Source of the DNA: Escherichia phage vB_EcoM_Lutter
Length of the DNA stretch: 64,000 nt
Direction: 5' to 3' (one strand)
Sequence record: NC_054924.1
Shown here: one piece after another, positions 1,828 through 7,237 of the stretch
Layout of the letters: each line of letters starts with the position of its first letter
Numbering within the stretch: position 1 is the first letter of the stretch
Notes under the pieces: model-generated
The model's input: the letters and a program-made list of their open reading frames with translations, nothing else
Told to the model about the DNA's origin: nothing
Databases searched by the model: none
Position numbers and translations under genes: made by a program

Positions 1828-3068
<1,241 letters not shown>

Positions 3069-3087
<19 letters not shown>

Positions 3088-3557
3088 TCAGTGATAAAGC
3101 TATTTAAATTTTGAGCATATTTCTTTTCATCATAAATCTTTTGCTGTCTGCGTAAACGCCATGGCATTTCAATGAACGTGTACCATATCCCAGATAATAT
3201 TGCTGCTGTAAAAATATTAACAAGTATGGTTAAAATAATCCAATCTCCCGTTCTGTCTACTGGACTTTCTCCAAAGAAGCAAAATACAAATGATGTCACA
3301 GGAAAACTAATAATATACCACAGAATCATAATCTTATCTGTGAACCAATCAGTGTTCGTTAATTTAGCGCGACCATTATGAATACACACGAATTTATCAT
3401 CTGTTGCAGTAGATGGCTTAACTGGTTGATATCCCATTCTAAACTCCCTAATCAGCAAATTTTTCATATCTTCGGAACAGCCATTCCAGTCAACTCTATC
3501 AACTGAAATGCCATCATCCCCATCATCTAAATCATACCAGCGAGTTTTTAAAATCAT
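3069..3557 (-). CDS. Small membrane protein, paralog 1 of a tandem family
   Basis: 162 aa; two hydrophobic helices then a basic stretch and C-terminal motif FITECRKLK; ATGA overlap with the upstream gene. Confidence 0.6.
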
Positions 3558-3928
3558 TTGATTTTCCTACAATCATTCACGAATTCTTTCATTGATTCAT
3601 TTTCAATATAAGACATGTAGTTATTATATTCTTTTAATTGTATTTTGTAATCCTTTTTTCTTTGCCAATTTATTTTAAAATTATCATAATGAAAATATAA
3701 AATAATACCAAAGAATGAAAATAATGAAATCGCTATAGTATAATGAAGTTCACTCCAAACTTCTATTATATCTACTATACCGCTGACATTACTGCGGATG
3801 TTTAAAATAATACAGTCAATCATTAATCCAATAAGACTACCCGCAAGAGCTGCAGCCAACGCCACAGCAAAAATTAAAAATGACTCAGAAAACGAATATT
3901 TGACTTTATTTAGTTTTGGCTTTTGCAT
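3554..3928 (-). CDS. Small membrane protein, paralog 2
   Basis: 124 aa; hydrophobic helices; C-terminal FVNDCRKIK. Confidence 0.6.
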   Translation of the reverse strand: MQKPKLNKVKYSFSESFLIFAVALAAALAGSLIGLMIDCIILNIRSNVSGIVDIIEVWSELHYTIAISLFSFFGIILYFHYDNFKINWQRKKDYKIQLKEYNNYMSYIENESMKEFVNDCRKIK

Positions 3929-4302
3929 CGTGATTCCTTAACAAATTTCATAATTTCATCAAATTCATACGCGGCAAGTTTAAGCTGATGTTCCTTTTTA
4001 ATCTTTTTACACTGTGCTTTCCAATCACGTACACGTTTACGATAATGTCTTCCTTGATACCAATATCCTATCCAATTTACAGGTACTAATAAAAGTGGAA
4101 CTATTAATGGAAGAATTAGCATTAACACAAGTATTTCGCCAGAATCAATATCAGTCATAACATCTAAAACACCTCCAATAATCAATAGAATTACAAATGA
4201 TATGAGTATAACAGGACCTATTAACACATCAGTAGAAATTATCTGGCGCTTTAATTCATACTTTAAGGGTTTACTTGGAAGATACATTGATGGCTTTGAC
4301 AT
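3910..4302 (-). CDS. Small membrane protein, paralog 3
   Basis: Track start 4323 is TTG; ATG at 4302 (MSKPSMYL...) has an AAGGAA SD; C-terminal FVKESRCK. Confidence 0.55.
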   Translation of the reverse strand: MSKPSMYLPSKPLKYELKRQIISTDVLIGPVILISFVILLIIGGVLDVMTDIDSGEILVLMLILPLIVPLLLVPVNWIGYWYQGRHYRKRVRDWKAQCKKIKKEHQLKLAAYEFDEIMKFVKESRCKSQN

Positions 4303-4879
4303 ATTCTCTACATTCCTTAACAAATTTTTCTAATAATAAATCGCTTTCAAAATTAGGATTTTCCACGAATTTATCAAAAAGATCATCAACGATAGTTAAG
4401 ATATTCTTTTTATTAAGAATACGCTTATTTTCATATTTTGTTTCAGAGTCAACTATAAGAGTAAAGAAATATTTCTTTCCCTGAAATTTTACCGTAGTAT
4501 CAATATAGAACAAATTTGACTTTTGTAAATTACGTTTAAACCATGCGTCACTTAAACTATAAACGCCAAGATAATCATAATCGTCGTTTAAATAACAAAC
4601 TGTCCATTCAGGAGAAATGAAATCAGTAAATTCAACATCAAAATCACATGTCAATGAATGAATCGATTCAATACTTTTAATAAGTATTCCAGGACGTATT
4701 AAAGACTTTTTACCTCTGGAAAATCTTCCAGAAAGACTTTCATTAGTTTCATATGAAGAACCCCAATAATAATTACGCCCTTCTGCCATACGTTTAAGAG
4801 CATTTAGTAATTGATCTGGAACATCAACCTGTCTTTGGAACTCTTCAAACATTGAATTGAAATCACTTTGCATTTTCAT
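4271..4879 (-). CDS. Hypothetical protein sharing the C-terminal FVKECR motif
   Basis: 202 aa, not hydrophobic; C-terminus EKFVKECREYVKAINVSSK. Confidence 0.6.
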   Translation of the reverse strand: MKMQSDFNSMFEEFQRQVDVPDQLLNALKRMAEGRNYYWGSSYETNESLSGRFSRGKKSLIRPGILIKSIESIHSLTCDFDVEFTDFISPEWTVCYLNDDYDYLGVYSLSDAWFKRNLQKSNLFYIDTTVKFQGKKYFFTLIVDSETKYENKRILNKKNILTIVDDLFDKFVENPNFESDLLLEKFVKECREYVKAINVSSK

Positions 4880-4900
4880 TCCTACTTACTCCAAGTAATA

Positions 4901-4914
4901 GGGGCCGAAGCCCC
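4901..4914 (-). terminator. Stem-loop with UUCG tetraloop after 4921..5514
   Basis: ggggccgaagcccc; minus-strand RNA is GGGGC-UUCG-GCCCC. Confidence 0.5.
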
Positions 4915-4920
4915 TTATCA

Positions 4921-5514
4921 TTATTTCAGAGAATTAATATATTCCTGAACATCGGCAGAGGTAGTTTCAACCCCAGAAATATTACCATTAAAGGTTTCAA
5001 CTCGAGCAAGGGTATCTTCAATATCAACCTTAGTCAGTGCTGCAATTTCAACTACATCATCTGCAGTACTAATTCCAAGGGCATTTGCTGCGCGAGTTTC
5101 ACGGATATATTCCAATTTAACTGCAAGTTCTTGGCGAGCATCATCCAATTCAACTACTTTCTTAGCGATTTCAATTCGCATTTCAGCATAACCATCAGCT
5201 TTAGTAGTCAACTGCTCAGCTGTTCGACGATATAGTAAACCGAGTTTAGCATGCATTGTTACATCTTGACCTTCGGAAAGAAGCTTGCGAATTTCACGCT
5301 CTTTTGATTCGGCTTGCTTATTCTTTTCGACAATAAGTTCACGAATACGCTTTTCTTCATTAATAGATTTAACGGAAGCAGTTTTTAGATCTTTAATCTT
5401 ATCAAGTAGTTTTGCTGCCGCAGCAGTATACTGTTCTTCAACAGATAGATTTTTAGCCATAGCAGAACCAAGTTTAGTGCGAATAAACTCAACAATTTTC
5501 TTCAGTGTGTTCAT
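4921..5514 (-). CDS. Coiled-coil protein with PspA/IM30 (phage-shock protein A)-like sequence pattern
   Basis: 197 aa; [42 protein letters not shown] and [27 protein letters not shown] resemble the [35 protein letters not shown] and TLVDDTLARMKKEI...TRARQQAL segments of E. coli PspA by eye. Confidence 0.5.
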
Positions 5515-5570
5515 AGTATTTCCTTAGGTTGGTATAATTAGATAATATCACGTTTTAATAGATTGTAAAC
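5515..5570 (-). promoter_or_regulatory. Early promoter upstream of 4921..5514
   Basis: Minus strand GTTTACA, ~17 nt, TATTAT. Confidence 0.4.
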
Positions 5571-6689: not shown

Positions 6690-7163
6690 TTATTTGATTT
6701 GTTTAGCAGACCAAATGCGGTCTTTGATAATTTTTTGGATGTCTTCAACATACTCAAGAGAGTGAACATGTGGATTATCTTTGAAACTATGAGCTCGCGC
6801 AAGTTTCTGGCCTTCAGTTTTGATTACTAAAAGCTCTTTAAGGATAGCTTCATATTTGGAGATAATTCCTTTAACAATATTTTTCTCTTGTGCGACTTTA
6901 GGATCTGCTTTAGGAGCAGGTTTACCCGAAGCCTTTGCAAAAGCAGCGCCAGTAGCAACTAAACTTTTCCAGGCCATACTAACTGCATTTCCCGTAAATC
7001 CTTCCGCTTTCATGTCGCGTGCGAACTGGAATCGCGATTCATCAGAAGCATCTTTATAGGAATATTTACCCGCTGCAATGGCTGCTTTTGCGACAGCTTG
7101 AATTTCGGTGCTAGATGCTTCATTTAACACCGCTTCATTTAAAAATTGAGTATATGATTTCAT
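6690..7163 (-). CDS. Candidate internal (capsid-packaged) protein with capsid-targeting-like N-terminus
   Basis: 157 aa; MKSYTQFLNEAVLNEA resembles the MKTYxEFIAEA targeting sequence, with two L-x-E motifs; own late promoter at 7200-7207. Confidence 0.6.
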   Translation of the reverse strand: MKSYTQFLNEAVLNEASSTEIQAVAKAAIAAGKYSYKDASDESRFQFARDMKAEGFTGNAVSMAWKSLVATGAAFAKASGKPAPKADPKVAQEKNIVKGIISKYEAILKELLVIKTEGQKLARAHSFKDNPHVHSLEYVEDIQKIIKDRIWSAKQIK

Positions 7164-7213: not shown

Positions 7214-7237
7214 AGCCCCAACCTTTCGGCTGGGGCT
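7214..7237 (-). terminator. Intrinsic terminator (stem-loop plus U-run)
   Basis: agccccaacctttcggctggggct; minus-strand RNA is followed by UUUUU. Confidence 0.55.

What the first reader, a model, noticed from the sequence alone, without database searches (positions are those of the whole stretch)
4921..5514. PspA/IM30-like coiled-coil protein in a phage early region
The 197-aa product has three segments that parallel E. coli PspA by eye (see feature evidence), in a soluble all-helical protein. It sits directly upstream, in the direction of transcription, of four tandem paralogs (4271-4879, 3910-4302, 3554-3928, 3069-3557), three of them small two-helix membrane proteins, and of nudE and lysozyme. 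It has its own early promoter (GTTTACA/TATTAT at 5515-5570) and a UUCG terminator. PspA-family proteins stabilise stressed membranes; a phage copy expressed early could protect the inner membrane during infection or against membrane-depolarising abortive-infection defences. I do not recall a PspA homolog being described for T4.
Basis: partly seen in the sequence, partly recalled or inferred. Interest (0 to 1): 0.7.

Follow-up and report, generated by a model that had tools for sequence, protein, structure and literature searches.

The report
T4 e.6: a divergent PspA-like protein
The gene is the T4 early gene e.6, and it really is a distant relative of the bacterial membrane-protecting protein PspA/Vipp1; the same protein family was already proposed as a phage PspA in a 2022 paper, and nobody has yet tested what it does.

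Summary
The ORF at 4921-5514 (minus strand, 197 aa) is real. Its product is 100% identical to phage T4 e.6 (msp3, P39224).

The PspA/IM30 reading holds as remote homology:
- The T4-type protein gets no Pfam PF04012 hit.
- An e.6-family profile finds Vipp1 as the best hits among all PDB sequences (E 1e-4).
- hhalign against a PspA/Vipp1 profile gives 93% probability and P 3e-7. Residue 1 aligns to residue 1. The score is about 15 sd above shuffled and reversed controls.
- Foldseek's eight best PDB matches are all Vipp1.
- Decisively, Ackermannviridae members of the same family (BLASTP 4e-13 to e.6) reach or sit at the PF04012 cut-off (39.0, 35.1 and 33.7 bits against 33.9).

The similarity covers amphipathic helix alpha0 and the alpha1-alpha3 hairpin. 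The C-terminal 50 residues are family-specific.

The most likely function is membrane binding and stabilisation during infection, possibly together with the small membrane proteins encoded downstream. This is inferred, not shown.

It is not new at family level. Gendre et al. 2022 relabelled phrog_1203 as PspA and proposed an anti-abortive-infection role. I rate interest as moderate.

The parts
4921..5514 (-). e.6 coding sequence (197 aa plus stop). A divergent member of the PspA/IM30 (ESCRT-III) superfamily, in phrog_1203.
   Evidence: ORF. 100% identical to T4 e.6/msp3. phrog_1203 at E 8e-88. Homology chain to PF04012.
5449..5511 (-). Residues 2-22: predicted N-terminal cationic amphipathic helix, equivalent to alpha0 of PspA/Vipp1.
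   Evidence: AF2 helix 2-22. Conserved hydrophobic positions 3/4, 7/8, 10/11, 15, 18/19 and basic positions 5, 6, 12, 14, 21; muH 0.45 against 0.49 for PspA. hhalign of this piece alone scores 19.7 against shuffles 6.6 +/- 1.7.
5080..5442 (-). Residues 25-145: long helical hairpin (alpha1 25-80, tip 81-85, alpha2/3 86-145), matching the PspA hairpin motif (aa 24-142).
   Evidence: AF2 pLDDT 85-98 across this stretch. hhalign of the hairpin scores 26.4 against shuffles 10.4 +/- 1.4; alpha2/3 alone scores 23.0 against 9.1 +/- 1.6. The top Foldseek PDB hits are Vipp1. Hairpin boundaries in PspA/Vipp1 are from PMC8281802.
4924..5079 (-). Residues 146-197: family-specific C-terminal region. It has a conserved LG[IL] hinge (G147), short helices 151-160 and 166-174, a poorly predicted linker, and a terminal helix 186-196 ending Y[IL]xSLK. 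No detectable similarity to PspA alpha4/alpha5.
   Evidence: Conservation in A1 and A3. AF2. C-terminal hhalign scores 10.9 against shuffles 8.0 +/- 1.5. This region is conserved between T4 e.6 and Kuttervirus gp132.
5542..5570 (-). Early sigma-70-type promoter: GTTTACA (-35), 16-nt spacer, TG-n-TATTAT (extended -10).
   Evidence: T4 record L13089.1 annotates -35 and -10 signals here. e.6 RNA is classed early in T4 omics (PMC9697503 supplementary tables S2 and S4).
5521..5525 (-). Shine-Dalgarno AAGGA, 6 nt upstream of the ATG.
   Evidence: Sequence read directly.
4901..4914 (-). GGGGC-UUCG-GCCCC tetraloop hairpin just after the stop codon. It is either an intercistronic stabiliser or a weak terminator.
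   Evidence: Putative stem-loop in the T4 record. The tail TATTACTT does not meet the terminator criterion on the minus strand.
3069..4879 (-). Downstream co-oriented genes e.5 (4271-4879, soluble), e.4 (3910-4302), e.3 (3554-3928) and e.2 (3069-3557). The last three are two-TM proteins. All carry a C-terminal F[VI]x[ED][CS]R motif. They are candidate membrane partners by context only.
   Evidence: The e.5-like gene with this motif stays next to e.6 in Marfavirus VAC36 and in RB43. In Kuttervirus dinky, e.6 is followed by two TM proteins.

Best explanation
The gene is T4 e.6. It is an early-transcribed, soluble, all-helical protein and a highly diverged member of the PspA/IM30/Vipp1 branch of the ESCRT-III superfamily.

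It keeps the N-terminal two-thirds of PspA: an amphipathic helix alpha0 and the alpha1-alpha2/3 hairpin, with the same boundaries as PspA 1-144. It has replaced alpha4/alpha5 with a shorter, family-specific C-terminus.

Proposed mechanism (inferred). Soon after infection, e.6 binds the anionic inner membrane through its cationic alpha0 and its hairpin. It then self-assembles, as PspA and Vipp1 do, to limit proton leakage and keep the membrane energised. I expect the host cannot mount its own transcription-dependent Psp response once T4 shuts off host transcription; that step is from my own knowledge and was not tested here. Protection would last until holin-triggered lysis. e.6 may be docked by the small membrane proteins encoded just downstream. 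A consequence could be resistance to membrane-depolarising abortive-infection systems.

Shown: gene identity, expression signals, homology and predicted fold.
Not shown: membrane binding, oligomerisation, any phenotype.
For: Identity and expression:
- 100% identical to T4 e.6/msp3.
- Promoter and hairpin present.
- In T4, the RNA is classed early and the protein is detected with a 'middle' class.

Homology:
- (a) A 42-sequence family HMM against 177,635 PDB sequences puts Vipp1/PspA in 8 of the top 9 places, E 1.2e-4 to 1.3e-3, aligned 1-146 to 1-147.
- (b) hhalign of A3 against A4 gives probability 93.2, P 2.9e-7, with e.6 1-138 aligned to PspA 1-133. The global alignment spans 193 columns, P 2.8e-8.
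- (c) Controls: reversed profiles score 18.9 and 16.7. Sixty column shuffles give 13.0 +/- 2.0. Sixty heptad-block shuffles give 15.0 +/- 2.4, against 51.6 for the real alignment. Circular shifts recover the same register.
- (d) Foldseek against PDB: ranks 1-8 are all Vipp1 (E 2e-3 to 1.6e-2, probability 1.0), followed within the next four ranks by the archaeal ESCRT-III protein CdvB2. In BFVD, the non-family hits that follow the five family members include a phage 'PspA/IM30 family protein' (rank 9) and a Snf7 protein (rank 12).
- (e) Full-length family members hit PF04012 directly: P0188 39.0 bits, E 8.9e-10; P0186 35.1 bits; Kuttervirus dinky gp132 33.7 bits (gathering score 33.9). These match the T4-type profile at E about 1e-20. 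BLASTP of gp132 against e.6 gives 4e-13 over 194 residues.

Anatomy:
- alpha0 is amphipathic and cationic.
- The hairpin at 25-145 is modelled with pLDDT above 85.
- By inspection of the sequences, dinky gp132 retains 6 of the 9 non-Met invariant alpha0 positions of the PspA alignment: R, A, N, K, D, K.

Context:
- Membrane proteins lie immediately downstream in both Straboviridae and Ackermannviridae.

Independent support:
- A pdb70 comparison in PMC9409062 assigned phrog_1203 to PspA.
Against: - The T4-type protein and its 30 closest relatives give no PF04012 hit.
- A PspA HMM scores e.6 itself at only 7.4 bits.
- E. coli PspA is a weak PDB hit, E 2.4.
- The KAEDP motif is lost in T4-type sequences.
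- The C-terminal quarter shows no PspA similarity, so ESCRT-III-type polymerisation through an alpha5 swap cannot be assumed.
- alpha0's hydrophobic moment is not significant against shuffles of its own residues (fraction 0.11).
- No experimental datum on membrane binding, pmf or phenotype was found.
- RB43 carries a frameshifted copy, so the gene is dispensable in at least one lineage.
Confidence: 0.55

Rival explanations
1. PspA mimic acting on the host Psp system rather than on the lipid bilayer. e.6 retains exactly the PspA 1-144 part. In E. coli this is the part that contacts the activator PspF and the PspB/C sensors (from my memory of the 4WHE work, not checked here). It could therefore silence, titrate or co-polymerise with host Psp components.
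For: - Similarity is confined to alpha0-alpha3 and is absent from alpha4/alpha5.
- The best sequence matches span residues 1-146.
- One GenBank label, 'shock protein A transcription regulator', reflects the same PDB template.
Against: - As far as I know, T4 shuts off host transcription, which would make repression of a sigma-54 operon largely redundant (not tested here).
- E. coli PspA is a much weaker match than cyanobacterial Vipp1, which is not what a host-specific mimic predicts.
- The family occurs in phages of Aeromonas, Klebsiella, Erwinia and Salmonella with deep divergence, which argues for a generic activity.
Confidence: 0.15
2. Dedicated counter-defence protein. e.6 specifically neutralises a host immune system that kills by depolarising the membrane (Rex-like, TM-effector CBASS, AbiZ-like). 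Alternatively it neutralises one that uses host PspA as a regulatory anchor, as a Bacillus CBASS cyclase does. It would not be a general membrane caretaker.
For: - Early expression.
- The gene lies in a variable region of accessory genes next to internal-protein genes.
- The anti-Abi hypothesis is published for this PHROG (PMC9409062).
- Host PspA is the conjugation target of a CBASS cyclase (PMC11153139).
Against: - No hit to any PADLOC defence model, although PADLOC holds defence rather than anti-defence proteins, so this is only weakly informative.
- No experimental link was found.
- The gene is very widely conserved (1105 phage records), unlike most narrow-spectrum anti-defence genes.
- This largely overlaps the main explanation rather than excluding it.
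Confidence: 0.15
3. Generic coiled-coil or scaffold protein whose likeness to PspA is convergent, or a structural 'host specificity protein' as many GenBank records call it.
For: - Single-sequence searches give only scattered coiled-coil noise.
- Prefoldin alpha appears among the top PDB sequence hits.
Against: - Position-specific, collinear similarity starts at residue 1 and survives reversal, shuffle and circular-shift controls.
- Family members exceed the Pfam PF04012 gathering score.
- The alpha0 motif A-N-x-N-x-x-L-x-K...D-x-x-K is retained in the Ackermannviridae branch.
- Early rather than late transcription argues against a virion role.
- The 'host specificity' label traces to an ACLAME family name with no evidence behind it.
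Confidence: 0.05

Closest known systems
Bacterial PspA / cyanobacterial and plastid Vipp1 (IM30), Pfam PF04012, ESCRT-III superfamily
   Same: - N-terminal amphipathic helix alpha0, then an alpha1-alpha2/3 hairpin with nearly identical boundaries (25-145 against 24-142).
- Collinear profile alignment from residue 1.
- Best structural matches.
- Similar size (197 against 222 aa); soluble.
- The gene is followed by small membrane-protein genes, as pspA is followed by pspB and pspC.
   Different: - The T4-type sequences fall below every PF04012 threshold and have lost the KAEDP motif.
- The C-terminal third is shorter and not detectably homologous.
- The gene is phage-encoded and driven by an early sigma-70-type promoter instead of a sigma-54/PspF promoter.
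- No functional data exist.
phrog_1203 members in Ackermannviridae (for example Salmonella phage SeF3a Gp_125 and dinky gp132), proposed as phage PspA by Gendre et al. 2022 (PMC9409062)
   Same: - Same protein family: phrog_1203 at E 8e-88, and BLASTP 4e-13 full length including the C-terminal region.
- Same length.
- Followed by membrane proteins.
- Same functional hypothesis.
   Different: - Only about 24% identical.
- The Ackermannviridae branch keeps the PspA alpha0 signature and reaches the Pfam cut-off; T4 e.6 does not.
- According to that paper the gene is patchy within Kuttervirus (4 of 15 genomes in the PHROG database), whereas it is widespread in T4-like phages.
Canonical PspA/IM30 genes carried by some phages and viral contigs (Acinetobacter phage ME3, Ralstonia phage RsoM2USA ORF54, IMG/VR contigs L083-L090)
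   Same: Phage-borne members of the same superfamily.
   Different: - Those are ordinary PF04012-type sequences with KAEDP and full alpha4/alpha5. They were probably acquired recently from hosts.
- They are rare in GenBank phages: 2 records found with one query.
- e.6 is an old, phage-specific, remodelled lineage. It has only 45 representatives among 1.8 billion cluster representatives, all about 200 aa except for shorter fragments.
Eukaryotic and archaeal ESCRT-III (Snf7, CHMP1B, CdvB)
   Same: Helical hairpin core. These appear as weaker structural matches.
   Different: - No sequence-level signal was tested or found here.
- They lack alpha0 in this form.
- They have different partners (Vps4, MIM motifs).

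Membership tests
Pfam PF04012 PspA_IM30 | The protein scores at or above the family's gathering threshold (33.9 bits). | tested here: not met
   The window protein has no PF04012 hit even at E <= 10. PF04012 is not among the 25 families listed for the 31 close homologues. An in-house PspA HMM gives 7.4 bits.
Pfam PF04012 PspA_IM30 | Full-length homologues of the protein score at or above the threshold (transitive membership). | tested here: met
   P0188 scores 39.0 bits (E 8.9e-10) and P0186 35.1 bits. dinky gp132 scores 33.7 bits, which is 0.2 below the cut-off and is its only hit. P0189 and P0187 score 22 bits. These match the e.6 profile at E 3e-20 to 3e-21 and e.6 itself at 4e-13.
PspA/Vipp1/ESCRT-III superfamily | Profile-level sequence similarity to PspA/Vipp1 that is collinear and exceeds composition controls. 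| tested here: met
   hhalign probability 93.2, P 2.9e-7. Controls score 13-20 against 51.6. The HMM against PDB places Vipp1 on top at E 1.2e-4.
PspA/Vipp1/ESCRT-III superfamily | Hairpin motif formed by alpha1 and conjoined alpha2/alpha3 (the hallmark according to PMC8281802). | tested here: met
   AF2 predicts helices 25-80 and 86-145 with pLDDT 85-98. Foldseek ranks 1-8 are Vipp1. This is a prediction only, not an experimental structure.
PspA/Vipp1/ESCRT-III superfamily | N-terminal amphipathic membrane-binding helix alpha0. | tested here: inconclusive
   A helix at 2-22 is predicted. The conserved hydrophobic/basic periodicity gives muH 0.45 against 0.49 in PspA. The alpha0-only hhalign scores 19.7 against 6.6 +/- 1.7. 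However, muH is not significant against shuffles (0.11), and membrane binding is untested.
PspA/Vipp1/ESCRT-III superfamily | Elbow, alpha4, and an alpha5 that binds a neighbour's hairpin tip (domain-swap polymer). | tested here: inconclusive
   A conserved G147 hinge and a terminal helix 186-196 exist. The C-terminal region shows no significant similarity to PspA alpha4/alpha5. Oligomer modelling was not possible with these tools.
PspA/Vipp1/ESCRT-III superfamily | Forms rings, rods or carpets on membranes and preserves proton-motive force. | not testable with these tools
   This needs biochemistry, cryo-EM and infection physiology.
E. coli Psp regulon component (PspA as a partner of PspF/PspB/PspC) | Sigma-54/PspF-dependent expression and an operon with pspBC. 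| tested here: not met
   The gene has a phage early sigma-70-type promoter. The neighbours e.5 to e.2 have no detected relation to PspB or PspC; all belong to PHROGs with no assigned molecular function, one labelled only 'membrane protein'. The host operon is shown for comparison.

The most novel reading that the evidence does not exclude
e.6 and the genes downstream of it (e.5, e.4, e.3, e.2) form a phage-borne analogue of the Psp system. In this reading, a C-terminally remodelled ESCRT-III-superfamily protein polymerises on the inner membrane. The two-TM proteins and e.5 recruit or regulate it through their shared cytoplasmic C-terminal F[VI]xECR tail. This would give T4-like and Vi1-like phages their own membrane-repair machine. 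That machine would sustain the proton-motive force after host shut-off and blunt membrane-depolarising abortive infection.
Probability: 0.2. Interest if true: 0.7.

Novelty: new member of a known kind. Interest (0 to 1): 0.45.

Why it matters
T4 is the reference lytic phage, yet about half of its early genes have no known function. Recognising e.6 as a PspA/Vipp1-type protein gives one of them a concrete hypothesis that can be tested in a genetically tractable system.

If phages carry their own membrane-stabilising ESCRT-III-like protein, that bears on three questions:
- how infected cells stay energised after host shut-off and during lysis inhibition;
- how phages escape defences that kill by depolarisation;
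- how far the ESCRT-III superfamily extends into viruses.

The practical gain today is an improved annotation for more than 1000 phage genomes. These currently call the gene 'hypothetical' or, without evidence, 'host specificity protein'.

Tried and rejected
- Direct Pfam, NCBIfam and PADLOC scans of e.6 and its close homologues gave only coiled-coil noise.
- phmmer of e.6 against PDB gave nothing.
- hhalign of the family against the single E. coli PspA sequence was uninformative, probability 0.6.
- Attempts to gather a diverse PspA set returned only Enterobacterales sequences at 78-100% identity (search for homologous proteins; genome contigs). Diversity finally came from PDB alignments and IMG/VR contigs.
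- A Vipp1 single-sequence scan of viral contigs found nothing.
- The afdb50 fold library was unavailable.
- A PspA HMM against all window ORFs ranked e.6 second, but at 7.4 bits, which is not significant.
- The contigs around distant metagenomic homologues carried only unannotated small ORFs.
- e.5 against the Kuttervirus downstream membrane protein showed no similarity.
- Literature searches for T4 e.6 by name, or for T4 with PspA and Foldseek, found nothing.
- I considered and rejected the GenBank label 'host specificity protein'. It is an ACLAME family name, the gene has early expression, and there is no supporting evidence.
Full report
**What is there**

The window carries an ATG ORF of 197 codons at 4921-5514 on the minus strand. 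An AAGGA ribosome-binding site lies 6 nt upstream.

The DNA is 95-99% identical to about 500 Tequatrovirus genomes. The protein is 100% identical to phage T4 'msp3', which is e.6 (T4p129, UniProt P39224). In annotated relatives the neighbours are, upstream, e.7 and e.8, and downstream, e.5, e.4, e.3, (e.2), nudE and lysozyme e. The ORFs here match this order.

GTTTACA lies at 5564-5570, then a 16-nt spacer, then TG-n-TATTAT at 5542-5550. This is 10 of 12 consensus positions with an extended -10. The 1990s T4 GenBank record annotates -35 and -10 signals at the same position and a putative stem-loop after the gene.

The stem-loop is GGGGC-UUCG-GCCCC at 4901-4914. Its U-tract is weak and it fails the terminator criterion on the coding strand. 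I therefore describe it as a UUCG hairpin that may stabilise or weakly terminate the transcript.

A T4 time-course study classes e.6 RNA as early and the protein as 'middle', so the gene is expressed (PMC9697503, supplementary tables S2 and S4).

**Is it PspA-like?**

Direct searches say no:
- There is no PF04012 hit for e.6, and PF04012 is not among the 25 most-matched families listed for 30 close homologues.
- phmmer against PDB finds nothing.
- PHROGs places it in phrog_1203, 'unknown function' (E 8e-88).

Profile methods say yes. I built a family alignment in two steps. The first used 31 sequences (A1). The second used 42 sequences reaching 18% identity (A3). The extra sequences came from an exhaustive HMM search of 1.84 billion cluster representatives. 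That search found only 45 family members, the full-length ones about 200 aa.

The A3 HMM searched against all 177,635 distinct PDB sequences puts Synechocystis and Nostoc Vipp1 in 8 of the top 9 places. E-values run from 1.2e-4 to 1.3e-3, aligned 1-146 to 1-147. One coiled-coil intruder, prefoldin alpha, appears at 6.5e-4.

For a profile-profile test I assembled a diverse PspA/Vipp1 alignment (A4). It contains:
- E. coli PspA;
- Synechocystis Vipp1, read from a PDB alignment;
- six PspA-like proteins from IMG/VR viral contigs;
- three Enterobacterales sequences.

hhalign of A3 against A4 gives probability 93.2%, P 2.9e-7 and score 51.6. e.6 residues 1-138 align to PspA residues 1-133. In global mode 193 columns align, with P 2.8e-8.

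**Controls against coiled-coil composition**

| Control | Score |
|---|---|
| Real alignment | 51.6 |
| A3 reversed | 18.9 |
| A4 reversed | 16.7 |
| Both reversed | 50.8 |
| 60 column shuffles | 13.0 +/- 2.0 (max 18.1) |
| 60 heptad-block shuffles | 15.0 +/- 2.4 (max 20.3) |

Every circular permutation re-finds the same register.

Cutting the proteins into pieces shows where the signal lies:

| Piece | Score | Shuffles |
|---|---|---|
| alpha0 (residues 1-24) | 19.7 | 6.6 +/- 1.7 |
| alpha2/3 | 23.0 | 9.1 +/- 1.6 |
| Whole hairpin | 26.4 | 10.4 +/- 1.4 |
| alpha1 alone | 13.0 | 8.0 +/- 1.4 |
| C-terminal 58 residues vs PspA 135-222 | 10.9 | 8.0 +/- 1.5 |

alpha1 alone is at background. The C-terminal 58 residues show no signal.

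**The decisive link**

The more distant family members come from Ackermannviridae-type phages. tblastn places them in Kuttervirus and in Erwinia and Salmonella Vi1-like phages. BFVD structural hits agree. These members hit Pfam PF04012 on their own:

| Protein | Bits | E-value |
|---|---|---|
| P0188 | 39.0 | 8.9e-10 |
| P0186 | 35.1 | 1.4e-8 |
| Salmonella phage dinky gp132 | 33.7 | 3.6e-8 |
| P0189 | 22.3 | 1.1e-4 |
| P0187 | 22.1 | 1.3e-4 |

The gathering score is 33.9. For dinky gp132, PF04012 is the only hit. The three strongest matches align residues 6/7-146 to profile positions 2/3-143.

The same proteins match the T4-type profile over their full length at E 3e-20 to 3e-21. Dinky gp132 aligns to the window's e.6 by plain BLASTP at E 4e-13, with 24% identity over 194 nearly ungapped residues that include the C-terminal region.

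By eye, dinky gp132 residues 7-32 (LNRLFSTVEANLTAGLDKLTDTEKRL) line up with PspA residues 4-29 ([26 protein letters not shown]). They keep six of the nine non-Met invariant alpha0 positions of A4. T4-type sequences have lost most of this motif, which explains why Pfam does not see them.

Homology of e.6 to PspA/IM30 is thus established transitively. Membership of PF04012 in the strict threshold sense is not met by e.6 itself.

**Structure**

AF2 with A1 gave pLDDT 74.7. With A3 it gave pLDDT 82.9 and pTM 0.67. The predicted helices are 2-22, 25-80, 86-145, 151-160, 166-174 and 186-196.

The 25-145 hairpin matches the PspA/Vipp1 hairpin motif (aa 24-142). Liu et al. call that motif the hallmark of the superfamily (PMC8281802).

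The N-terminal helix has conserved large hydrophobic residues at positions 3/4, 7/8, 10/11, 15 and 18/19. It has conserved basic residues at 5, 6, 12, 14 and 21, with net charge +3. Its hydrophobic moment is 0.45 against 0.49 for PspA alpha0. That value is not significant against shuffles of its own residues (0.11).

**Context**

e.4, e.3 and e.2 each have two TM-like segments. e.5 and e.6 have none.

e.3 weakly hits e.4's PHROG (E 0.008). e.2 against e.3 gives E 0.002 in a six-sequence database. All four downstream proteins end in a short motif F[VI]x[ED][CS]R[KC]. The 'four tandem paralogs' are therefore three plausible distant paralogs plus a soluble protein that shares a tail motif.

An e.5-like gene with this motif stays directly downstream of e.6 in Marfavirus VAC36 and in RB43. 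In Kuttervirus dinky, the e.6 homologue is followed by a TM-anchored 191-aa protein and a 55-aa TM protein.

This recurrent adjacency to membrane proteins is the only contextual support for a membrane role. It recalls pspA-pspB-pspC, but no homology to PspB or PspC was detected.

**Mechanism**

Shown: gene identity, expression signals, homology, and predicted alpha0 plus hairpin.

Inferred from what PspA and Vipp1 do (PMC8281802; titles and abstracts of PMC12358876 and PMC12636044, listed): e.6 binds the inner membrane through alpha0 and the hairpin, and self-associates to limit proton leak.

My understanding is that T4 shuts off host transcription, which would prevent the host from inducing its own sigma-54-dependent psp operon. 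This comes from my own knowledge and was not tested here. A phage copy made from an early promoter would fill that gap.

Whether e.6 polymerises like ESCRT-III is open, because its C-terminal quarter is not recognisably alpha4/alpha5.

Rivals:
- a PspA mimic acting on PspF, PspB or PspC;
- a dedicated anti-defence factor;
- a convergent coiled coil.

**Novelty**

The family-level call has been made before. Gendre et al. 2022 compared Kuttervirus SeF3a Gp_125 with pdb70. They concluded that phrog_1203 is PspA, listed 'phrog_1203 ... phage_shock_protein_A' among their new annotations, and proposed an anti-Abi role (PMC9409062). One GenBank record (Klebsiella phage VAC36) labels the orthologue 'shock protein A transcrption regulator'.

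I found no paper naming T4 e.6 as PspA-like and no experiment on any member. Canonical PspA genes also occur sporadically in phages and viral contigs.

**Verdict**

The finding is correct and solidly supported as remote homology. It is a new, and the most tractable, member of an already proposed phage PspA-like family, with a remodelled C-terminus. Interest is moderate, and the function remains to be tested.

Noticed in passing
window 3069-4879 (minus strand): e.2, e.3, e.4, e.5: All four products end in a short shared motif: ...FITECRKLK, ...FVNDCRKIK, ...FVKESRCKSQN, ...FVKECREYV... The three two-TM proteins place it on a basic cytoplasmic tail. e.5-like proteins of VAC36 (EEFIKHCRE) and RB43 (EKFIHSCKK) keep it. 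It may be a common docking or regulatory motif. Its function is unknown.
   Followed up: partly
window 6690-7163 and 1828-2124 (minus strand): Both ORFs start with nearly the same N-terminus (MKSYTQFLNEAVLNEA... and ...[16 protein letters not shown]...). From memory, this looks like the capsid-targeting or cleavage leader of T4 internal head proteins. The 157-aa ORF (phrog_2280, unknown function) sits between e.8 and the tRNA cluster, where PP01 has an unnamed hypothetical gene.
   Followed up: no
L096 (Escherichia phage RB43, NC_007023.1) 3855-4447: The RB43 e.6 gene is broken. An N-terminal piece (MIKKIFSFLNNKVETVIEQNTSPED...) is in one frame and the annotated 97-aa 'e.6' is in another. It is either a pseudogene or the result of sequencing errors.
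   Followed up: partly
GenBank phage records matched: Many Tequatrovirus records name this gene 'host specificity protein' (an ACLAME 1259 label), with no evidence. One Marfavirus record names it 'shock protein A transcrption regulator'. The same HHpred-style record gives tiny neighbouring ORFs implausible names such as 'major capsid protein' and 'naphthalene 1,2-dioxygenase'.
   Followed up: yes
L085-L090 (IMG/VR viral contigs of 77-360 kb): Canonical PspA/IM30 genes, with the KAEDP motif and a longer hairpin tip, sit on very large viral contigs. These are either jumbo-phage-borne PspA or host contamination of the viral bins.
   Followed up: no
window 4900-4915 and 7214-7237: Two GC-rich tetraloop hairpins lie in this early region: the UUCG hairpin after e.6, and AGCCCCAGCC-GAAA-GGTTGGGGCT followed by a TTTTT tail on the minus strand near the tRNA cluster. 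The second is a much better intrinsic-terminator candidate.
   Followed up: no
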